DNA of 64,000 nucleotides, from IMG/VR virus record IMGVR_UViG_3300006056_000001, positions 64,001 through 128,000 of that record; one strand, 5' to 3'. The notes beneath the pieces were generated by a model. The model worked only from the letters and a program-made list of their open reading frames with translations, ran no database searches and had not been told where the DNA came from. This DNA comes from a virus (Duplodnaviria; Caudoviricetes). This document shows positions 5,950 through 57,736 of the stretch, piece by piece. The position numbers and the translations under genes were made by a program. Each line of letters begins with the position of its first letter. Position 1 is the first letter of the stretch.

Positions 5950-7891
5950 TTAGATTTTCTCTTAAAGCGGACGTAAGGCTATTTATCAGATTATTGATTC
6001 TTTCCTGTTGGTCAGGAGTATAACAATTACCTTTGCCTTTCTCAGTATTTTGCTCGGGGATTATTCCATAAGAAAATTTTAATCTACTACTTTGTTTAGT
6101 AGTAATATCAGGAAAATGCTTTTGTACATCTTCTGACTTCATAGGAAGAACAGGCGGGATATCTCCTAAAATAGTAAATATTGCTTGGTCAAAATTTGAA
6201 TCAGTATCTGTAAGATCATTGTTTGGTCTTACTGATCTATTTTTTGAATCAAGTTCGCATGTATTTGCTAAATCAAGTCTAGCGGCCAATACTTCCAATA
6301 TTCTAGCTATTCCAAGTAGATGTCTTCTATCTGCAGCAATCTTCCAGCTTCCGTCCGACGCCAATCCAAAATTACCTATTATAGTACTTATATCTCTTAT
6401 TAAAGCATTTACTTGATCAAATATAGCACGCACAGAATGTAGTAATGCCCATCCAAGGGTAAGCATTCCGTTACATGCAGGTAGGTTTTCAAAATCTGTA
6501 GTAAATGTCTTCGTTATCTTATCTGCTATCTTGTAATAAAATTTATTAATATCTTTAGCTATTTCAAATAAAGCATCTTGAGCCAGGTTAGCTAAGAAAG
6601 AAGATATAATATTTTGTATTCTTACTATTTCGCCTGATAGGTCTGTAGCTAATATTCTTAATAAGCTTGCTATAGTATACATTACTTCTGGATTACCTAT
6701 TGCACCAAATATCTGAACTAAGCAACACATGTCCCTATCTGTAAGTTGATATATAAAAGAACTTAATATATCATCATAAAGATTATTGCTATTTTCTTTT
6801 AAAGACCTAGTTGCACTAGCTAGTTGTATAAACATCTTGCTTGTTTTTCTAGGTTGATTAAAAATACTAGCTCCTTCTTCAGGAGTATTTTGAGAAGGAG
6901 AGTACTGTTGTTTGTAAGATTGGAATTTAGGAGAAAACTCTGAAGAGGTATTTAATGCACCTCTAATAGTTTGCTGATTTTGTGCAACGTTTAGGTATGC
7001 TATCCAATGGTCTATACTTAGATGACTGTTTGGGCCTACTAAGCCTCCATATCTTCTATAGTACTCATTTACATACTTAATTATTTCTTCTGAGTCAATA
7101 AATTCTTTGCTTTTCTTTAACTCGTCATAATCTAGACCAATAGTTTTTAACGCGGCTGCTCTAGCTGTATCAGAACTAGATAGCTCTTCTATTTGTTTTT
7201 CTACTAGAGGAGTAGATATATTGCTCTTCTTAAGAGCATTAATTATTCTTTCTGCTTTTATACCTAGTTCTAAAAATAAAGCAATACCAGCAGGAATTTG
7301 TGATATCTGAATTCCTTTAGCTCCCTGCTCTACTCCTAAAGCTTGAAAAATAATAGTCTGAAAAGGAGATATAGTAAGCATTCCTAAAATAGTACTAATA
7401 ATACCATTTTGAGAAACAAACTCTTTTAACATGGATTCTGGTTTAGGAGAATTACTTATTTTTTCTGTAGTTTCTTGAGTAGTCTGTGCTACAGAAGCAG
7501 GAAGCTTCATTTTTATAGCAGTCCCTCTTATCTCCCATTTCTTTGCTAATATAATGTCTACAGCTTTTTGATATAGAGAATAGGTTATTATAGATCCTTC
7601 TTTGGACTCTTCTTTGTTAAGTCTAATGGCTGCAGCCCTAGTAGAATCACAAGCTTCTTCTATAGGAATATATTGAGCGGGGTCCATTTTAGATAGACCC
7701 TCTTTTAACTTATTGCCTTTTAAATATGTTTTTGCTAAATCTGTAAATATTTGATCAATTAACTGTTCTCTTTCATCTTCATTACCAAAAGCATCATAAT
7801 CTAGATTATCTTTAAAATGCTCAATAGTACCTAAGTCTGTTAATTTTCTAGGTCTAGCAAAATTAGGCCGGCCATTATACTCTATACTCAT
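5942..7891 (-). CDS. Hypothetical virion/head-module protein
   Basis: 649-aa helical ORF tightly abutting terminase and overlapping portal. Confidence 0.45.
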   Translation of the reverse strand: MSIEYNGRPNFARPRKLTDLGTIEHFKDNLDYDAFGNEDEREQLIDQIFTDLAKTYLKGNKLKEGLSKMDPAQYIPIEEACDSTRAAAIRLNKEESKEGSIITYSLYQKAVDIILAKKWEIRGTAIKMKLPASVAQTTQETTEKISNSPKPESMLKEFVSQNGIISTILGMLTISPFQTIIFQALGVEQGAKGIQISQIPAGIALFLELGIKAERIINALKKSNISTPLVEKQIEELSSSDTARAAALKTIGLDYDELKKSKEFIDSEEIIKYVNEYYRRYGGLVGPNSHLSIDHWIAYLNVAQNQQTIRGALNTSSEFSPKFQSYKQQYSPSQNTPEEGASIFNQPRKTSKMFIQLASATRSLKENSNNLYDDILSSFIYQLTDRDMCCLVQIFGAIGNPEVMYTIASLLRILATDLSGEIVRIQNIISSFLANLAQDALFEIAKDINKFYYKIADKITKTFTTDFENLPACNGMLTLGWALLHSVRAIFDQVNALIRDISTIIGNFGLASDGSWKIAADRRHLLGIARILEVLAARLDLANTCELDSKNRSVRPNNDLTDTDSNFDQAIFTILGDIPPVLPMKSEDVQKHFPDITTKQSSRLKFSYGIIPEQNTEKGKGNCYTPDQQERINNLINSLTSALRENLNG

Positions 7892-9762
7892 TAGAAGTTA
7901 CCTCTTTTATAGCCAATGTCTCCTCTGCCTTTTCTATTAACATCTAAGTTACCTCTTGCATCAAGGTTACCTTTCAGGTGTTGCATTCCCTTCTTAGCTG
8001 GATTTCCTAGATCTCTAGATTTTATATCTTTATTTGGTTTCTTTCCGCCGGTATGGTTTATCAATTTCCATCCAGCTTGTATCTCAATCTGTCTTTCTCT
8101 TTCTGTTAAGGTAGCTTCTACTTTAGGCCCTTCGTCTCCTACCTCTATTCCAACTACAGTAGTACTGTAAGGTACTCCTTTTAGATCTCCTTCTTTCCAA
8201 TAGTAGCCGCCGATTGCAAGGTAATATGCTGTAAGAGTGTGATCCTGTCCTTGTGAATATTTTGGCAAGCCATATACTGAGTAACTTTCTACTCTAAAGT
8301 TTCTCATTTGCTGTATTAGTCCCATTCTGTCATCGCTGCTTTTTACAGAAGTATCTTCAGATCTAGGGAGTATCAAGTTTCCATTATCTAATAGTCTCTT
8401 AGTTTGTTCTATAAGGAAGTGTTTGGCTCCTTTTTTGACAGGAAGTCCAGACAAAGGATCTATTAGTTCAATATGTTGATTCATTAGTATTGCTACTAAT
8501 TTAACATCTAACATGGATCCGGGTTCTTTTAAAGAATGCTTCCTTAAAAGCTCATATTGTACTTCTCCATATCCCTTATCCATGAATATCCATTTAGGTC
8601 TCCAAGCCCTATTTAATTGAATTATAGTTTCGACTCCTGCTGTCTGTGTATATTCTGATTTTTCTATAACTATTTTTTTAATTAACTTTAGCTTATTAGA
8701 ATCTTTTTCTATAATAAGAATGTGTGTTCCTGCGTTTGTGTTCCAGTCAACGCCTATTATATAATCACATGAAGGTCTAGGACCAGTATCTTCTATGGAG
8801 TAGTCATCTAAAGATGCATTAAGAGATCTTGTCTTAAACACACCGTCTTCCAGTTCTGCAAAGTCTGCTAAATACTCATGTCCATATGTAGCTCCATCGC
8901 TGGATCCCTTAAAGTATTTTTCAGTCTCTTCTGTCCATTCTGGAGATTCTGCAGATATAAACCAAAATTCTTTATAACCAAGATTTTTATTAGTTACATA
9001 CGTATAGAATTTTCTTCTCCAACCACGAGGAGTAGTAGCAGCTATAAGCTTACAATCTTTGTGAGAAGCTAAGATAGCCATTACTGCGTCAATGTCAGCA
9101 TCTTCAATAGTATCTATTTCGTCAATTACAATAAGATTCGCATCTTGTCCACGAACTTTATCAGATCCAGATCCAACGTCTGCGCCTACTGAGAAGCCTA
9201 ATACTTTACTTCCATTTTGGAAGTCCATTCTAGATGGTGTCTTAGTATATCTTGCTAATGATCCTTTTAGGGACGCGCTCTTGTTTACAAACTTAGATAA
9301 TTCATCAAAAAATCTAGTTACCTGTCTTTCATAAGGGGCAACAACAAGAATAGTAAAATCTTTATTAGTTGCAAGGTTGTATAGTGCTTCTACAACCATT
9401 GCTTCTGTTTTACCTGTTCTTCTTCCTAGTCTATATAACTTCTTTACAGAAGTACAAGAAAGCATTTCTTTTTGATAAAATCTTGGAGACCAGCCAAATT
9501 CTGCATGTGCCCATGCTATAGGATCTAGCAATATAGCCGTTTGGATATATTCATCTAGTGTATCAAAATCAGATACATCTAATAGATCTACTTTTTTATT
9601 AGCTTCTTTTTCACATCTAGGTGGAAATGGAGAAGAGGTTAATTTCTTCTCATATAGAAGAGCATAATATTCTTCACATCTTTTACACATATCCCCGTCT
9701 AACTTTTTTAACGGGGTATAATTTGTGCTTAGATAGTTATTTTCTGGAATATAATTTGTCAT
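7891..9762 (-). CDS. terL: Terminase large subunit
   Basis: Walker A GRRTGKT, Walker B LIVIDE, motif III ATTP, nuclease IIGVDWN and C-terminal QDH; likely start MTNYIP at 9762. Confidence 0.92.
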   Translation of the reverse strand: MTNYIPENNYLSTNYTPLKKLDGDMCKRCEEYYALLYEKKLTSSPFPPRCEKEANKKVDLLDVSDFDTLDEYIQTAILLDPIAWAHAEFGWSPRFYQKEMLSCTSVKKLYRLGRRTGKTEAMVVEALYNLATNKDFTILVVAPYERQVTRFFDELSKFVNKSASLKGSLARYTKTPSRMDFQNGSKVLGFSVGADVGSGSDKVRGQDANLIVIDEIDTIEDADIDAVMAILASHKDCKLIAATTPRGWRRKFYTYVTNKNLGYKEFWFISAESPEWTEETEKYFKGSSDGATYGHEYLADFAELEDGVFKTRSLNASLDDYSIEDTGPRPSCDYIIGVDWNTNAGTHILIIEKDSNKLKLIKKIVIEKSEYTQTAGVETIIQLNRAWRPKWIFMDKGYGEVQYELLRKHSLKEPGSMLDVKLVAILMNQHIELIDPLSGLPVKKGAKHFLIEQTKRLLDNGNLILPRSEDTSVKSSDDRMGLIQQMRNFRVESYSVYGLPKYSQGQDHTLTAYYLAIGGYYWKEGDLKGVPYSTTVVGIEVGDEGPKVEATLTERERQIEIQAGWKLINHTGGKKPNKDIKSRDLGNPAKKGMQHLKGNLDARGNLDVNRKGRGDIGYKRGNF

Positions 9763-28230: not shown

Positions 28231-29806
28231 TTCTGAAATCTATCTTGTAGTTCCATCGGTGAGTTAGGTGCCCGTGGATCTTGGGTAGAACTAACTCAAC
28301 TAAGTAAAGTAAAACTTTACAAGAGATATCGGTGATACATGGAAAAAGTAAAACACGGTTGGTATTCTGAAAAGCAAGCCGCTATTGCTGGTACTCATGT
28401 ATATTCAACTGATACTTGCGAGGTACATGTTTCAACTATCTCAGAAAGTGATACCGATTCAGGTAGCAAGTTTGACGATATGAAGTACGTAGGTATCGTC
28501 AAAAATTGGCTGCGAGAGGGTATTCCTCGTGGTATGGGTCAAAAGTCATTTGACGACCTAAAGAAAACCATGAAGGGTCTCTTAGGTCCCTAACCGAACA
28601 CCAAGAACAAGTTGTTGGACAGACGCCCTGTGGTATGCATGTGACCGCATGTATGCTTCTTCCCCTCCTTCCCACTGTCTGACGTAAAAGGCTTGACCGA
28701 GCCTTTCTTGATCTTCCTTCCTAAATAATAAAATGAAGATTGCTGCTGTAATCTTAATTACTTTTATTTGGAGCTTTATTATTGGACCTATATCCTTAGC
28801 TCCACTTAATAGAGAACAGTTAACTTATCTACAAACTGTTTTTATTAGCTTTTTGTTTGGTATTGTTGTAGTAGCATTCCTTTGGTCAATTTATATTTTA
28901 CTTAACTAATGGGCTTTCTAATTTTCTGGTGTTTACTTTCGTTATTGCCTGCTATTGCAGCAGTTAAAGCAGATTGTGAAAGAGGTGTATCTTTTATAAT
29001 ACTAATCTTAAGCTTCGTGCTTACGTTCATAACGTGGCCTTTATTTTTATATCTATTTTTCTATTATTGTTTTGCTGAACATCAATACTTATTTAAAAAG
29101 TATTATCCAGAATAGTGGATCTGGCCACTTAAAATAGGCTAATAAGCCAGAAGCGTTGTCAGATAGTTGACAGGAAGCGACTCCAAATCCTAGATGGATG
29201 TCTAGACATCTAAGTGCAGGCTGGTCTGGGATGTCGTTTGTAATTACTGTAGGTGGAGAAATCTGCCGAACAAGTGTACAAATCCTACGCTTACAGTTCG
29301 CGTTAGGCCGGGTCAATTTGTGAACTATTGATCTGGTCTTTAAGAGATATTCCCTCTTTAACCTGCTTGGGATAGGTTAATTCCCACGATAGCAGGACCT
29401 AGGGAAGATAGAACGACTGTCCTTTTTCTTTAACAAAAATAATAAAATAATGATTTACCTAATAGCAGCAATAATTGTGTTATACTATGTAAATAGACAA
29501 GATAGAAATAAAGATGGATGATCCAATAGAATTAGAACTTATTAAAAGAACAAAGATTGAGCTATTAACTGAATTATTAGAAGAATTATATAAACCAAAA
29601 ACTTATGCTATTGATGATAATATAAATCAAGAAGATTATAAAAAAGGAGTTATTACTCAAAAAATATATACATCAGGAAATATAAAATACCATCTTAACC
29701 AATTACTTACTAATACACAAGTAGAACATATTTCTTTAACACTTCAAGAAAAATATCCTAATTCCCCATTAACTCAGTTTAATAAGAAATAGAGATAATT
29801 TTCTTT

Positions 29807-35652: not shown

Positions 35653-36081
35653 ATGGATTTAAAAGAATCATTAAAAATAGCACTTGCTGATACTTTTGCT
35701 ATGTATTGGAAGGCCCACGAGTTCCATTGGAACGTAGTAGGTCCTAACTTCAGCGAATATCATTCTTTCTTTGGTGATTTATATGATGAACTTTGGGATG
35801 CATTAGATGTTATTGCTGAGCAAATTAGAATGCAAAAGACATTTATTCCTTCTTTAGAGAGACTATTATCTGTAAAGACTATTTCTGTATCTACTGGTCC
35901 TGTAGAGGCTTCTGTTATGATGAAGCAGCTATTACAAGATAATAAGAAAGTAATGGAATCATTACAATCAGCATATACTCTTGCTGAAGAAGCAGGTGAA
36001 TTTGCTTTATCAAATATTATACAAGATAGACTAAGCGCCCATGCTAAACATGGCTGGATGCTTGAATCATTTACTCAGTAA
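35653..36081 (+). CDS. dps: Dps/ferritin-like DNA-protection protein
   Basis: KAHEFHWNVVGPNF..YH..F..LY..L....D.IAEQIR; H.KHGWML. Confidence 0.92.
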   Translation: MDLKESLKIALADTFAMYWKAHEFHWNVVGPNFSEYHSFFGDLYDELWDALDVIAEQIRMQKTFIPSLERLLSVKTISVSTGPVEASVMMKQLLQDNKKVMESLQSAYTLAEEAGEFALSNIIQDRLSAHAKHGWMLESFTQ

Positions 36082-36232: not shown

Positions 36233-37822
36233 ATGAATAAAAACCTTTTTAGCAATAAAACTCCTGGAAAGACTATCCCAGCTCCAAATACTGTTAATAA
36301 TGCTGGTGGACTTGCTTACTTAAGAGATGATGAATCTCAGTTAGCACAACTAGCTATTACAGGTTGCTTTGGAAATACTTACTATGTAAGTGCAGATAGC
36401 CAGCTAAAAGACGTTATTGCTTTAGCAAAGAAGTGCTCTCCTTTGTTTGTAGCACAAACGGCTATCTATGCTCGTAAGCAGGGCATGATGAAGGATATGC
36501 CGGCTGTATTAGCTGCTGTACTATCTACCAGAGATCTTCCTCTATTAAAGCAGATCTTCCCTGTTGTTATTGATAATGTTAAAATGTTACGTAACTTTGT
36601 ACAAGTTATTAGATCTGGCGTAGTAGGAAGAAAGAGCTTTGGTACTGCTCTAAAGAATCTGATACGTCAATATTTTAACAACAAGACGCCTGAGCAACTA
36701 TTTAAGCAGTCTCTTGGTACTTCTCCTTCCATTGGAGATATTATCAAGATGGTACATCCTAAGCCGAAGGATGAGGCTACTTCTATGACTTTTGCTTACT
36801 TAACTGGTAAGGAAGTCTTAGCTAAGGGCGCTCTACCCCAGCTATTACAGGATTACATGGCATTCCGTGAAGATCAGACTAAGGCTATGCCTAATCTGAA
36901 TTTCCAGTTCCTTTCTAGTCTACCTTTGACTAAGGAACAATGGACTCAGCTTTGTCTGACGTCTACATATAATACTTTACGTATGAACTTGAATACTTTT
37001 AATAGACATGGTGTATTTAAGGATAATACTGTAACTTCTAAGGTTATTGCCCGCTTGACTGATCCTAAGGAGATCAAGAAGAGCAAGGTAATGCCTTATC
37101 AGATTTATAGCGCATATAAGCATATTGATAGTGAATTGCCTCCTGGTATGGCTCAAGCTCTTGCCAAGGCTGCAGATATTTCCTTAGATAATATTCCTGA
37201 CTTACCTGCTAACTTGGTTATTGGTCTAGATACCAGTGGTAGTATGAGTTCTACTGTTACTGGTAATCGTGGAAGTGCTTCTTCCAAGATGAAGTATATT
37301 GATGTAGCTGCCTTGATGGCAGCAGCTATTGTGTCTAAGTGTCCAACTGCTACTGTTATTCCTTTTGATACTCGTTATCATAAAGGATTTAAGATGAAGG
37401 GTAGTATCGTAGATACTGCTGAAGCTTTATCTAAGTTTGGTGGCGGTGGTACTGAATGTTCTATTCCTATTCAAGAAGCAGCTAAGATGTCTAATGTAGA
37501 TGCTATTATAATTATCTCTGATAATGAGAGCTGGGCTTCTACTGCTCGCGACTCCATGACTGAATGGAGAAAGGTACAGAAGAAGAATCCTAATGCTAAG
37601 TTAATTAATATTGATATATCACCCTCACACTCTACCCAAACAAAGGATGAGCAAAATATTATAAATATTGGTGGATTTTCTGACTCTGTATTTAATGTTA
37701 TCTCTAACTATTTAAGTGGATCCATTGATCAGTGGATTGAAATTATTGAGAAAATCGATATTAGTAATACTCCTGTGACTACTACGTCTGTAGAGACGTC
37801 TGTAGAAAATACAGAAGAGTAA
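36233..37822 (+). CDS. rsr: Ro60/Rsr TROVE-domain RNA-binding protein with vWA domain
   Basis: N-terminal VNNAGGLAY and G.FGNTYY; LRMNLNTF; MIDAS DTSGSM; GGGT; IIISDNESW. Confidence 0.92.
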   Translation: MNKNLFSNKTPGKTIPAPNTVNNAGGLAYLRDDESQLAQLAITGCFGNTYYVSADSQLKDVIALAKKCSPLFVAQTAIYARKQGMMKDMPAVLAAVLSTRDLPLLKQIFPVVIDNVKMLRNFVQVIRSGVVGRKSFGTALKNLIRQYFNNKTPEQLFKQSLGTSPSIGDIIKMVHPKPKDEATSMTFAYLTGKEVLAKGALPQLLQDYMAFREDQTKAMPNLNFQFLSSLPLTKEQWTQLCLTSTYNTLRMNLNTFNRHGVFKDNTVTSKVIARLTDPKEIKKSKVMPYQIYSAYKHIDSELPPGMAQALAKAADISLDNIPDLPANLVIGLDTSGSMSSTVTGNRGSASSKMKYIDVAALMAAAIVSKCPTATVIPFDTRYHKGFKMKGSIVDTAEALSKFGGGGTECSIPIQEAAKMSNVDAIIIISDNESWASTARDSMTEWRKVQKKNPNAKLINIDISPSHSTQTKDEQNIINIGGFSDSVFNVISNYLSGSIDQWIEIIEKIDISNTPVTTTSVETSVENTEE

Positions 37823-37829
37823 CACATCT

Positions 37830-37919
37830 TGGTGAATGCAGAGTAGGATTACATTGTAACCATAATAACAAGCGGCCTTAGAAAGGCCGTTAAAACGGTC
37901 TTACTCACTTTTGTCACCA
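37830..37919 (+). ncRNA. Y RNA-like unit 1 (hairpin module)
   Basis: TGGTGA/TCACCA, GAATGC, GAGTAGGATT/GGTCTTACTC; module CGGCCT/AGGCCG hairpin. Confidence 0.75.
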
Positions 37920-37931
37920 TTTCATTATTCT

Positions 37932-37997
37932 AGCGGATGCTGACAGGACTACATTACTTGCTTTGTAAACATAGTGTCTTGTTAATAACTTGCCGCT
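37932..37997 (+). ncRNA. Y RNA-like unit 2 (minimal)
   Basis: AGCGG/CCGCT, GGATGC, TGACAGGAC/GTCTTGTTA, short loop. Confidence 0.7.
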
Positions 37998-38004
37998 TTA
38001 TTCT

Positions 38005-38132
38005 TGACGAATGCTCGAAGGGTTTACATTCATACGGAGAACGTGGACCAGGTGCGATTCCTGGAACCCCGACCATCGGGGTCATGGTGTAACAGTAGCA
38101 CACGAAAATAGACTCTTCAATTCTTGTCGTCA
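38005..38132 (+). ncRNA. Y RNA-like unit 3 (YrlA-type permuted tRNA domain)
   Basis: TGACGA/TCGTCA, GAATGC; T-arm CCAGG/CCTGG, acceptor hairpin ACCCCGA-CCA-TCGGGGT, D-arm. Confidence 0.85.
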
Positions 38133-38141
38133 TTTCTTTAT

Positions 38142-38275
38142 TGATCGAATGCTCTAAGGGATTACAATTCACTGTTAATGAAAAGGTCGTTGGTTCGAGT
38201 CCAACCCACCCCGCCAATGGGGTGGTAGCTCAGTTGGTAGAGCGTTAAAATAGTCTCTTAAATTTTTGTCGATCA
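38142..38275 (+). ncRNA. Y RNA-like unit 4 containing a complete permuted tRNA-Asn(GTT)
   Basis: TGATCGA/TCGATCA; TTCA-CTGTTAA-TGAA, T-arm, CCACCCC-GCCA-AT-GGGGTGG, TAGCTCAGTTGGTAGAGC. Confidence 0.85.
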
Positions 38276-38284
38276 TATTTTTCT

Positions 38285-38418
38285 ATAAGTGAATGCCTGA
38301 AAGGAATTACATTTTTTTTGAACAAAGAGGGACTGGGTTCGAATCCCAGCTTAGCTCGAAAGAGCTATGTGTTGTAATGGTAGCACTAAAACAATTTCTT
38401 TCGATTCTTGTCACTTAT
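38285..38418 (+). ncRNA. Y RNA-like unit 5 (YrlA-type)
   Basis: ATAAGTGA/TCACTTAT, GAATGC; T-arm CTGGG-TTCGAAT-CCCAG; TAGCTC-GAAA-GAGCTA; D-arm. Confidence 0.85.
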
Positions 38419-38424
38419 TTTCCT

Positions 38425-38547
38425 TCCGAATGCAGTTAGGACTACAATAACACTCTGGTGGTCAGAGGTTCAATTCCTCTAGTCCGCGAAAGCGGGCATA
38501 GCTCAGTGGTAGAGCACCAGATAAAGGTCTTAACAAATATCGTCGGA
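38425..38547 (+). ncRNA. Y RNA-like unit 6 (canonical YrlA-type)
   Basis: TCCGA/TCGGA, GAATGC; TCTGGTG/CACCAGA; T-arm AGAGG/CCTCT; GTCCGC-GAAA-GCGGGC; TAGCTCAGTGGTAGAGC. Confidence 0.88.
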
Positions 38548-39130
38548 TTTTCTTTTTAGAATAACAAAATGATAGAATTCTTCACAGGACTGATTCTTGG
38601 ATTAGGATGGTGGTGGATTCCTATCCTTTCATTAGGCTCTATTATTCTAGATAGAACTGAACATTATTTTTGGTCATTAGTAACTACTATTCTTATCTTT
38701 GTTTCTTGTTTAGTATTACTTAATCTTTCTTGGCAGTATATATTTTATATTGCTATTTTTTACATTCCAGTAGGATTTTTATGGTCCTTCTGGAGATGGT
38801 ATCAAAATTGTAAGAAAGTAATTAACGAAATAGAAGATAAATATAATAGTAATTATATTCCTAGTAATTATACACTAGACAACTTAGAAGATAAGGTTGC
38901 AATTCATCTTAACTTACATAGAATTACTGGGTGGGTATTATCCTGGCCAGTAAGTATTTTCTGTTATTTACTTGAAGATGTACTAGTATCTATTGAAAAA
39001 ACTATTAGAAATATATCTAAGTATACATATACAAAATGGTCTGATGAAGCTGTCTCTAAAATTAGAGATATTAAAAATAAAAAAGAATCTAAAGACTTAG
39101 AAGATTACAGTTAAGTATATTGATCTTTAA

Positions 39131-39207
39131 CCCCAGGTAGCTCAGTTGGTTAGAGTTTTCGTCTGATAAGCGAAGGGTCGGAGGTTCGAGTCCTCCCCTG
39201 GGGACCA
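39131..39207 (+). tRNA. tRNA-Ile(GAT)
   Basis: TTCGT-CTGATAA-GCGAA; CCA. Confidence 0.9.
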
Positions 39208-39210
39208 CAT

Positions 39211-39286
39211 GGGGTCGTAGTTCAATTGGCAGAACATTGGCTTTGCAAGTCAAGGGTTGAGGGTTCAAGTCCCTCCGATTCCACCA
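39211..39286 (+). tRNA. tRNA-Ala(TGC)
   Basis: TTGGC-TTTGCAA-GTCAA; G3:U70; CCA. Confidence 0.92.
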
Positions 39287-52016: not shown

Positions 52017-52123
52017 ACACCAGCTTTAAGACATTACCGGGTAGGGGGTTCGACTCCCCTGGGGGCATCCATACTGCCCCTCAAGGTCGTACTTAGGTAT
52101 TCTTCTCGTTAAAATAGCTGTGT
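52017..52123 (+). ncRNA. Stand-alone permuted tRNA-like RNA
   Basis: T-arm AGGGG-TTCGACT-CCCCT followed by GGGGGCA-TCCATAC-TGCCCCT hairpin, enclosed by ACAC(C)AGCT/AGCTGTGT. Confidence 0.55.
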
Positions 52124-57660: not shown

Positions 57661-57736
57661 GGGTCATTAGCATAACGGTTAATGCGCAGAGCTGTTAACT
57701 CTGACTATCCGAGTTCGATTCTCGGGTGGCCCTCCA
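57661..57736 (+). tRNA. tRNA-Asn(GTT)
   Basis: CAGAG-CTGTTAA-CTCTG; CCA. Confidence 0.88.

What the first reader, a model, noticed from the sequence alone, without database searches (positions are those of the whole stretch)
38142..38275. Y-RNA unit 4 holds a complete circularly permuted tRNA-Asn
Seen in order: anticodon arm (GTT at 38174-38176), variable loop, T-arm, 3' acceptor with G73-CCA, a 2-nt link, 5' acceptor and D-arm; the Ro handle is inserted between the D- and anticodon arms. Unit 3 also keeps ACCA at its acceptor loop, whereas units 5 and 6 have GAAA. Inference: snapshots of Y-RNA modules being captured from tandem tRNA junctions. Cleavage at the CCA link could yield a chargeable two-piece tRNA tethered to Ro60.
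Basis: partly seen in the sequence, partly recalled or inferred. Interest (0 to 1): 0.8.

Follow-up and report, generated by a model that had tools for sequence, protein, structure and literature searches.

The report
Phage Y RNA containing a whole tRNA
One of six small RNAs encoded after a phage's Ro60 gene contains every part of an asparagine-type tRNA in rearranged order, and I find that this design, anticodon arm included, is common among YrlA-type Y RNAs, where the arm was published as a "variable arm".

Summary
Unit 4 (38142-38278) is a YrlA-type Y RNA, 56 bits against Rfam's cut-off of 69. It has a Ro60 handle, a hairpin with a 7-nt CUGUUAA loop, an AGGUC variable loop, a T arm, and a 7-bp acceptor stem closed by G-CCA-AU, followed by a D arm. 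When rejoined, ARAGORN calls it a 76-nt tRNA-Asn(GUU).

It is not a one-off. In 269 closed-acceptor modules from about 240 Ro60 loci, 82 carry the same arm: 1-3 base pairs made with the strand after the D arm plus 2-5 hairpin pairs. Their 7-nt loops match real anticodon loops (Y32 84%, U33 83%, R37 85%, A38 77%), and every pair covaries. Chen 2014 called this hairpin the "V" arm, and Wang 2018 wrote that YrlA lacks an anticodon loop.

N-CCA at the start of the acceptor loop also recurs (16 of 136 seven-bp stems).

The "recent capture from a tRNA-Asn junction" idea is not supported. With the loop masked, the body matches Thr, Ile and Val tRNAs, not Asn.

The dimeric-tRNA origin model and RNase P cutting with CCA addition (M. 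smegmatis YrlA) are already published. Charging is untested.

Verdict: a new variant of a known kind.

The parts
36233..37822 (+). Ro60 (TROVE + Ro60-type vWA) gene, 529 aa
   Evidence: Pfam PF25045 E=8e-19 and PF05731 E=2e-7. There are thousands of Ro60 homologues, and the nearest fetchable ones are 50% identical or less.
37822..37919 (+). Y-RNA unit 1: handle plus hairpin cargo, no tRNA-like domain
   Evidence: Sequence and MFE fold. It has the GUGAAUGC handle motif and UUACA.
37930..37997 (+). Y-RNA unit 2, YrlB-like
   Evidence: Weak YrlB match, 16.8 bits; fold.
38004..38136 (+). Y-RNA unit 3, YrlA-like. Hairpin UUC/GAA with 7-nt loop AUACGGA (38029-38041); acceptor CCCCG-ACCAU-CGGGG (38067-38081).
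   Evidence: YrlA 26.8 bits; coordinates. The same AUACGGA loop occurs in L053:2542-2626.
38142..38278 (+). Y-RNA unit 4, the finding: a YrlA-type RNA with a complete permuted tRNA-like domain
   Evidence: YrlA 56 bits, E=9e-12, below the gathering score of 69 because of a 16-nt insertion. Fold z = -3.1.
38142..38148 (+). Lower handle stem, 5' strand; pairs with 38269-38275. The CGAAUGC Ro60-motif region follows.
   Evidence: motif GNCGAAN0-1G as in PMC4201824.
38155..38164 (+). Upper handle stem, 5' strand; pairs with 38251-38260. The conserved UUAC-A is at 38162-38166.
   Evidence: YUAC is nearly invariant in alignment A2.
38168..38182 (+). Anticodon-like hairpin UUCA/UGAA with loop CUGUUAA (38172-38178; GUU at 38174-38176)
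   Evidence: family-wide covariation and loop signature.
38183..38188 (+). A43 (pairs with U27 at 38245) plus class-I variable loop AGGUC
   Evidence: s=1. AGGUC is the commonest V loop both in the modules and in real tRNAs of the same loci.
38189..38205 (+). T arm GUUGG-UUCGAGU-CCAAC
38206..38225 (+). Closed 7-bp acceptor stem: CCACCCC, then G73 (38213), CCA (38214-38216), AU (38217-38218), then GGGGUGG
   Evidence: N-CCA at this place occurs in 16 of 136 seven-bp modules.
38226..38246 (+). U8-A9, D arm GCUC-AGUUGGUA-GAGC (38228-38243), G26, U27, U28
38286..38420 (+). Y-RNA unit 5, YrlA-like: weak U-rich hairpin (38312-38328), acceptor closed by GAAA (38352-38367)
   Evidence: YrlA 20.5 bits.
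38423..38552 (+). Y-RNA unit 6, classical loop-less YrlA: 5-bp inter-strand anticodon-stem equivalent CUGGU/ACCAG, acceptor closed by GAAA (38482-38497)
   Evidence: YrlA 49.2 bits.

Best explanation
Unit 4 is one of four YrlA-class Y RNAs, alongside two YrlB-like units, probably transcribed with the phage's Ro60 gene and the tRNA cluster. Its two-part handle stem carries the CGAAUGC motif and docks on Ro60 (inferred by homology). Its effector end is a full tRNA mimic. T arm, D arm, class-I variable loop and all the usual tertiary-pair nucleotides are present: U8, A14, G15, G18, G19, G26, A44, G46, C48, U54, U55, C56 and A58. The 7-bp acceptor stem is closed by G73-CCA-AU. The 5-bp anticodon stem is built from U27:A43 plus a 4-bp hairpin and is capped by the loop CUGUUAA. 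The handle branches off the 5' strand of that stem. This is the standard design of a large YrlA clade, whose hairpin was published as a 'variable arm'. Most likely function (inferred): it presents a specific tRNA look-alike, here an Asn-type anticodon loop, to tRNA-binding enzymes while tethered to Ro60. The 7-bp stem, U(-1) and the encoded CCA make RNase P cleavage between 38218 and 38219 plausible, about even odds. That cut would give a two-piece CCA-ended RNA, as shown for M. smegmatis YrlA. Aminoacylation is possible but unlikely to be the purpose.
For: YrlA model matches for units 3-6, directly after a Ro60 gene. ARAGORN calls the rejoined RNA a tRNA, and the MFE shows the five-way junction. 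At the tRNA register, 82 of 269 modules have a 5-bp composite stem with a 7-nt loop, against about 5-28 at other registers, leaving aside the +1 register that duplicates it. For spacing 20-23 nt the figure is 53 of 65, and 28 of 29 at 21 nt. No filter was placed on the loops, yet their make-up mirrors 573 real tRNAs from the same loci. Covariation on alignment A2: 30:40 is CG36/GC19, 31:39 is AU18/CG14/GC13, 27:43 is GC38/CG14/AU5, and 28:42 is CG37/GC17. Overall 95% of cells pair, against 34-45% with partners slid. The hairpin joins the 42-43 strand with no linker, which favours coaxial stacking (inference). CCA is the commonest trinucleotide after N73. All 24 phage tRNA genes encode CCA, and the Ile-Ala tRNA genes are joined by only 3 nt. 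RNase P cutting and CCA addition of a 7-bp YrlA are published (PMC4201824).
Against: There is no transcript, binding or processing evidence for this phage. Close relatives (Ro60 59-93% identical) could not be fetched, so conservation of the GUU loop and the GCCA loop in true orthologues is untested. The hexaloop may be too tight for RNase P. In the whole set 22% of loops have A34, which is rare in real tRNAs (3%), so the loops are not generally under decoding constraint. Actinophage Sparky's YrlA has a 5-nt-loop hairpin that is not adjacent to the 42-43 strand, so the design is not universal. The phage has no RtcB, Rnl2-type ligase or CCA-adding enzyme by Pfam.
Confidence: 0.8

Rival explanations
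1. The hairpin is a variable arm, as published for YrlA. The anticodon-stem equivalent is the helix leading into the handle, and the RNA has no anticodon arm.
For: This is the reading in PMC4201824 (section 6), and 10.1101/312249 states that S. Typhimurium YrlA lacks the anticodon loop. In Sparky's YrlA the hairpin has a 5-nt loop and is set apart. UUAC could pair with GUUAA after the D arm in unit 4 (read directly from the sequence).
Against: The hairpin lies 5' of nucleotides 42-43, whose pairing with 27-28 covaries, so it sits inside the anticodon stem and not between that stem and the T arm. An intact 5-nt class-I V loop follows it. The loops are 7 nt with the Y32-U33-R37-A38 signature.
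Confidence: 0.1
2. Unit 4 is a recent capture, or decaying fossil, of the junction between two tandem tRNA-Asn genes.
For: The G73-CCA plus 2-nt link looks like a tRNA-tRNA junction. The phage has such a junction at 39204-39214. A dimeric-tRNA origin for YrlA has been proposed in print (10.1101/312249).
Against: With the loop masked, the body matches Thr, Ile, Val and His tRNAs best, not Asn. The body matches the loop's isotype in only 3 of 47 modules. The phage's own tRNA-Asn (57661-57736) is very different and has U73. The T and D arms follow the YrlA consensus. The same architecture occurs in bacteria and phages with Ro60 only 40-50% identical.
Confidence: 0.06
3. Unit 4 is processed by RNase P and 3' trimming into a two-piece, CCA-ended RNA. 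AsnRS charges it, or it serves as a decoy or sensor for enzymes that attack the anticodon loop, while it stays bound to Ro60.
For: It has a 7-bp acceptor stem, U at -1, an encoded CCA, and G73 plus G34-U35-U36, which are the E. coli AsnRS identity elements (from my own knowledge, not checked here). There is a precedent in M. smegmatis YrlA (PMC4201824). A second permuted module pairs a GUU loop with G73-CCA in another phage, where CCA is followed by a 29-nt spacer (L261, about 7826-7940 on the minus strand). GUU is the commonest triplet in these loops, 7 of 82.
Against: There is no experimental evidence. The phage already has a normal tRNA-Asn(GUU). Discriminators of the other GUU-loop modules vary, with G in about half. 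Many loops in the family carry triplets that no real tRNA uses.
Confidence: 0.15
4. The anticodon-like hairpin is a chance fold in an AT-rich linker.
For: The stem is only 4 bp and AU-rich. A rough prior for a random 17-mer is about 1-3% per unit.
Against: Register-specific enrichment, covariation and loop signature across the family. The CUGUUAA loop recurs with different stems (L053:4597-4681 AUCUA/UAGAA, L025:949, L197:5815-5902, L241:5036-5124).
Confidence: 0.02

Closest known systems
YrlA (Y RNA-like A; Rfam RF02553; S. Typhimurium structure described in 10.1101/312249; Chen et al. 2014, PMC4201824)
   Same: Lies next to a Ro60 gene. Has a handle with the CGAAUG-type motif and YUAY. The T arm lies 5' of the D arm with a closed acceptor stem-loop between them, so it resembles a permuted tRNA.
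   Different: Scores below the Rfam cut-off (56 against 69 bits) because of the inserted hairpin. Unit 4 has a 7-nt anticodon-type loop and an encoded G73-CCA, whereas the published description says YrlA lacks an anticodon loop and a free CCA end. It sits in a six-unit array in a phage.
Mycobacterium smegmatis YrlA (PMC4201824)
   Same: Has a seven-bp acceptor stem. It is cleaved by RNase P in vitro and in vivo, the 5' half gains CCA, and both halves stay with Rsr.
   Different: There the CCA is completed after cleavage, while here it is encoded. The related actinophage Sparky YrlA has a 5-nt-loop hairpin that is not in anticodon-arm register. The M. smegmatis sequence itself was not examined.
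Circularly permuted tRNA genes of Cyanidioschyzon merolae and some archaea (Soma 2007, Chan 2011, as cited in 10.1101/312249)
   Same: The 3' half precedes the 5' half, and the acceptor ends are joined by a short linker that RNase P and RNase Z must open.
   Different: Those genes mature through a circular intermediate made by the splicing endonuclease and ligase, and they become working tRNAs. Here the ends form a conserved Ro60 handle, and no such processing signal was looked for or is known in bacteria.
Two-piece (permuted) tmRNA
   Same: The CCA-bearing acceptor strand is encoded upstream of the 5' acceptor strand, and an intervening segment is removed to give a two-piece, chargeable tRNA-like domain.
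   Different: tmRNA has no anticodon arm and carries an mRNA-like part. It has a different partner (SmpB) and function.
'Inside-out' tRNA-shaped Y RNAs noted earlier in this scan (e1-5529253, e1-5596806)
   Same: A complete tRNA fold with a Ro60-docking stem branching from the anticodon stem, next to Ro60 genes.
   Different: Those have open acceptor ends and a loop-closed handle, which is the opposite permutation. They are AI notes that I did not test.

Membership tests
YrlA-class Y RNA | Encoded next to a Ro60/Rsr orthologue | tested here: met
   The array starts right after the stop codon of a TROVE + vWA_Ro60 gene.
YrlA-class Y RNA | 5'/3' terminal stem with a GNCGAAN0-1G motif near the 5' end, and conserved YUAY | tested here: met
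   AUCGAAUG at 38144-38151 (first base A, not G) and UUAC at 38162-38165; the terminal stems are in the MFE.
YrlA-class Y RNA | Conserved T stem-loop 5' of a conserved D stem-loop, with an acceptor-like stem-loop between them | tested here: met
   cmscan alignment over model positions 1-114; module finder.
YrlA-class Y RNA | Reaches the Rfam RF02553 gathering score (69 bits) | tested here: not met
   56 bits, E=9e-12. The shortfall comes from a 16-nt insert state where the hairpin lies. This is a curation threshold, not a structural feature. I therefore file unit 4 as a variant of the kind and not as a plain Rfam member.
YrlA-class Y RNA | Bound by Ro60; modified by TruB and DusA | not testable with these tools
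   Needs immunoprecipitation and modification mapping.
tRNA-Asn | Four arms with standard lengths, a 7-nt loop with GUU, and G73-CCA | tested here: met
   Met only after rejoining 38219-38244 to 38167-38216; ARAGORN then calls tRNA-Asn(gtt), 76 nt.
tRNA-Asn | Colinear 5'-to-3' gene with free acceptor ends | tested here: not met
   The order is permuted and the acceptor is closed by a hexaloop. ARAGORN and the Rfam tRNA model do not call it in place; the two partial matches score 23-24 bits.
tRNA-Asn | Body sequence related to tRNA-Asn genes | tested here: not met
   With the loop masked, the best matches are Thr, Ile, Val and His tRNAs.
tRNA-Asn | Aminoacylated by AsnRS | not testable with these tools
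   Needs a biochemical assay.
Permuted tRNA gene (C. merolae type) | Matures through a circular intermediate to a working tRNA | not tested
   No bulge-helix-bulge search was done. The conserved Ro60 handle argues for a different fate.

The most novel reading that the evidence does not exclude
Phage and bacterial Ro60 arrays encode sets of isoacceptor-specific tRNA look-alikes, with Asn-type GUU, Arg-type ACG/UCG, Lys-type UUU and Ile-type GAU loops. Some, like unit 4, are opened by RNase P into CCA-ended two-piece tRNAs held on Ro60. There they are charged, or they act as decoys or sentinels for anticodon-loop nucleases and modification enzymes in phage-host conflict.
Probability: 0.15. Interest if true: 0.85.

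Novelty: new variant of a known kind. Interest (0 to 1): 0.6.

Why it matters
YrlA RNAs are described as tRNA mimics that lack an anticodon loop and a CCA end, and their effector is unknown. If the so-called variable arm of a large clade is really an anticodon stem-loop with a variable triplet, the list of candidate partners changes. It would then include enzymes that read anticodon loops: synthetases, modification enzymes and anticodon nucleases. The multi-unit arrays would become sets of different tRNA look-alikes. Unit 4 is the fullest example found here, with a GUU loop, G73, an encoded CCA and a 7-bp stem. That makes it a good substrate for testing whether Y RNAs can be cut, charged or attacked like tRNAs.

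Tried and rejected
The contigs encoding the close Ro60 relatives P0001-P0008 (59-93% identity, Logan/ENA only) could therefore not be fetched, and true orthologues of unit 4 were not compared.
- Single-protein and exact-DNA scans of IMG/VR found nothing close. Alignment-based scans of viral, metagenome and genome collections gave only Ro60 at 50% identity or less.
- The GenBank phage collection gave Myxococcus phage Mx1 (42%) and distant actinophages. No YrlA match came up around the Mx1 Ro60 gene.
- Whole-unit similarity did not single out L053:4597-4681 as the orthologue of unit 4, so I do not claim orthology, only a shared loop and handle style.
- ARAGORN on rejoined sequences proved too lenient to serve as the main test.
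- Matching module bodies to isotypes gave no signal.
- A degenerate pattern scan for GUU-loop modules mostly hit 3' halves of real tRNA-Asn genes, probably integration sites. It also returned three YrlA-like or handle-bearing modules.
- No RtcB, Rnl2-type ligase or CCA-adding enzyme was found in the phage.
- No convincing promoter or terminator lies inside the array.
- The review by Sim et al. 2020 was not held, and no supplements of Chen 2014 were held. I therefore cannot exclude that the anticodon-arm reading is in print there.

Full report
**Setting.** The window is bases 64001-128000 of a complete 189.7-kb IMG/VR phage record with terminal repeats. It carries 24 tRNA genes. ORF 36233-37822 encodes a Ro60 protein: Pfam vWA_Ro60 at E=8e-19 and TROVE at E=2e-7. 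Six tandem Y-RNA-like units follow directly after its stop codon, up to about 38552. Rfam's YrlA model matches four of them below its 69-bit cut-off. Unit 4 (38142-38278) scores 56 bits, unit 6 scores 49.2, unit 3 scores 26.8 and unit 5 scores 20.5. Unit 2 gives a weak YrlB match. In all four YrlA-like units the model places an 11-16-nt insertion between the conserved YUAC and the T arm.

Unit 4 reads as follows, in order:
- handle stems 38142-38148/38269-38275 and 38155-38164/38251-38260
- UUAC-A
- hairpin UUCA/UGAA with loop CUGUUAA (38172-38178)
- A43, then the AGGUC variable loop
- T arm
- CCACCCC, G73, CCA, AU, GGGGUGG
- U8-A9, D arm, G26, then U27 and U28

The MFE of the whole unit reproduces this five-way junction (-42 kcal/mol, z = -3.1). 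Joining 38219-38244 to 38167-38216 gives a 76-nt sequence that ARAGORN calls tRNA-Asn(gtt). The nucleotides that make the standard tRNA tertiary pairs are all present, read directly from the sequence with standard numbering. Unit 3 has CCCCG-ACCAU-CGGGG, and units 5 and 6 are closed by GAAA. ARAGORN alone is weak evidence, because it also accepted 59 of 187 control rejoinings without a proper arm.

**What is already known.**
- Chen et al. 2014 (PMC4201824) described YrlA as a tRNA mimic with T, D and closed acceptor stem-loops. [quoted passage not shown]
- The same paper showed that M. smegmatis YrlA, which has a 7-bp acceptor stem, is cut by RNase P in vitro and in vivo. The 5' half then carries CCA. 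The authors raised aminoacylation as a possibility.
- Wang et al. [quoted passage not shown] They discuss an origin from dimeric tRNA transcripts.

**Survey of relatives.** I collected 240 Ro60 loci at 50% identity or less from viral, metagenome and genome collections. I scanned them for a T arm followed by a closed acceptor hairpin and a D arm. This gave 269 such modules outside ARAGORN-called tRNAs.

I then asked one question of each module, with no condition on loop sequence. Do the 17 nt before the variable loop form a 5-bp stem with a 7-nt loop, if the first 0-3 pairs may be made with the nucleotides that follow N26 after the D arm?
- 82 modules pass at the tRNA register. About 5-28 pass at other registers, apart from the trivially equivalent +1 register.
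- The usual split is 2 inter-strand pairs plus 3 hairpin pairs (50 cases). Unit 4 has 1 plus 4.
- Among modules chosen only by YUAC-to-T-arm spacing of 20-23 nt, 53 of 65 pass, and 28 of 29 pass at 21 nt.
- 66 of the 146 loci that have a module carry at least one such arm, and this holds in all three collections.

**Loop signature and covariation.** The 82 loops compare with 573 real tRNAs from the same loci as follows.

| Position | 82 module loops | 573 real tRNAs |
|---|---|---|
| 32 | C 55%, U 29% | C 71%, U 27% |
| 33 | U 83% | U 93% |
| 37 | A 68%, G 17% | A 85%, G 14% |
| 38 | A 77% | A 79% |
| 34 | A 22% | A 3% |

Positions 34-36 vary in the modules. AGGUC is the commonest variable loop in both sets. 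On a MAFFT alignment of the 65 spacing-selected modules (A2), the tool count gives the following.

| Pair | Pair types |
|---|---|
| 30:40 | CG36, GC19 |
| 31:39 | AU18, CG14, GC13 |
| 27:43 | GC38, CG14, AU5 |
| 28:42 | CG37, GC17 |

Overall 95% of cells pair, against 34-45% with partners slid. The covariation score is 0.70, against 0.17 in shuffles.

The hairpin lies 5' of nucleotides 42-43 and joins them without a linker. Topologically it is therefore the top of the anticodon stem and not a variable arm. The Ro60 handle branches from the 5' strand of that stem. I could not find this reading in the papers I could search. Two relevant sources were not held.

The design is not universal. Unit 6 and many other modules are loop-less like Salmonella YrlA. 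Mycobacteriophage Sparky's YrlA has a 5-nt-loop hairpin out of register.

**The CCA.** In 16 of 136 seven-bp modules the acceptor loop begins N-CCA, and CCA is the commonest trinucleotide at that place. The spacer after it is 2-8 nt and usually ends in U before G+1, as read from the listing. Only four modules combine a 7-bp stem, N-CCA and a canonical anticodon-type loop: unit 4, L019:1726, L230:4873 and L215:2358. All 24 genuine tRNA genes of the phage encode CCA. The Ile and Ala tRNA genes are joined as ACCA-CAU-GGGG, so a 2-3-nt spacer after CCA is ordinary RNase P territory for this phage's host. A pattern scan of IMG/VR found a further permuted module with a GUU loop and G73-CCA followed by a 29-nt spacer (L261, about 7826-7940 on the minus strand). 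It sits among RNAs with a different shared handle, and no Ro60 gene lies in that 27%-complete fragment.

**Against "snapshots of capture".** With the 7-nt loop masked, the rejoined unit 4 is closest to Thr, Ile, Val and His tRNAs. Across modules the body matches the loop's isotype in only 3 of 47 cases. The phage's real tRNA-Asn (57661-57736) is unrelated in sequence and has U73. The T and D arms follow the YrlA consensus. The scaffold is therefore old and the triplet is what varies. GUU is the commonest triplet (7 of 82) and recurs with different stems in L053, L025, L197, L241 and L016. Arg-type ACG/UCG loops also recur, for example unit 3 and L053:2542-2626 with the identical loop AUACGGA. 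The 22% A34 shows that the loops as a class are not under decoding constraint.

**Mechanism.**
- Shown here: the architecture, its conservation, and the loop and CCA signatures.
- Inferred: Ro60 binds the handle, and the tRNA-like end is read by tRNA-binding proteins, now probably including ones that read the anticodon loop.
- RNase P opening between 38218 and 38219 has about even odds.
- Charging by AsnRS, or a decoy or sentinel role against anticodon-loop enzymes, has about 15% odds.

The phage encodes no RtcB, Rnl2-type ligase or CCA-adding enzyme by Pfam. No promoter or terminator signal lies inside the array, so co-transcription with later processing is likely.

**Earlier notes of this scan.** Notes on the same window describe the six-unit array, and I agree with them. 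Notes on other genomes describe tRNA-shaped Y RNAs of the opposite permutation, with the handle branching from the anticodon stem. They fit the picture, but I did not test them.

**Verdict.** Unit 4 is a new variant of a known kind (YrlA). The wider result is that the published "V arm" of a large YrlA clade behaves as an anticodon stem-loop.

Noticed in passing
window 52043-52081 (+): A T arm (AGGGG-GUUCGAC-CCCCU) is followed at once by a closed 7-bp stem, GGGGGCA-UCCAUAC-UGCCCCU, with U-CCA in its loop. It lies outside any called tRNA, just after the two tRNA-Ser genes. The only hint is a 15-nt match to the T-arm part of the tmRNA model. It may be another permuted tRNA-like piece.
   Followed up: partly
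L261 7650-8260 (minus strand): A 64-kb phage fragment carries at least three RNAs. Two of them share the handle GGA(A)GUGG...AGUUUCAGAA. Their cargos are a permuted tRNA-like module with a GUU loop and G73-CCA, one with A73-CCA and a long spacer, and a colinear tRNA-like one. No Ro60 homologue was found in the fragment. It may belong to the other Ro60-like partner-RNA system noted earlier in the scan.
   Followed up: partly
L241 4830-5760 (Hahella sp. chromosome): Five YrlA-like modules lie in a row downstream of a bacterial Ro60 gene. Two have anticodon-type loops with different triplets (GUU and UUU). Multi-unit arrays with varied loops are therefore not confined to phages.
   Followed up: partly
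window 39204-39214: The tRNA-Ile and tRNA-Ala genes are separated by only 3 nt (ACCA-CAU-GGGG). All 24 tRNA genes of the window encode their CCA.
   Followed up: yes
window 29114-29179 (+): A Pistol ribozyme match lies above Rfam's gathering score (42.5 bits against 34.5).
   Followed up: no
window 35653-36081 (+): A ferritin-like (Dps-type) gene sits immediately upstream of tRNA-Leu and the Ro60 gene.
   Followed up: no
L243, L246-L248, L255, L264 and others: Many IMG/VR contigs hold only the 3' part of a tRNA-Asn gene (anticodon arm to GCCA) with no 5' half. This looks like attachment-site remnants of integration into tRNA-Asn.
   Followed up: no
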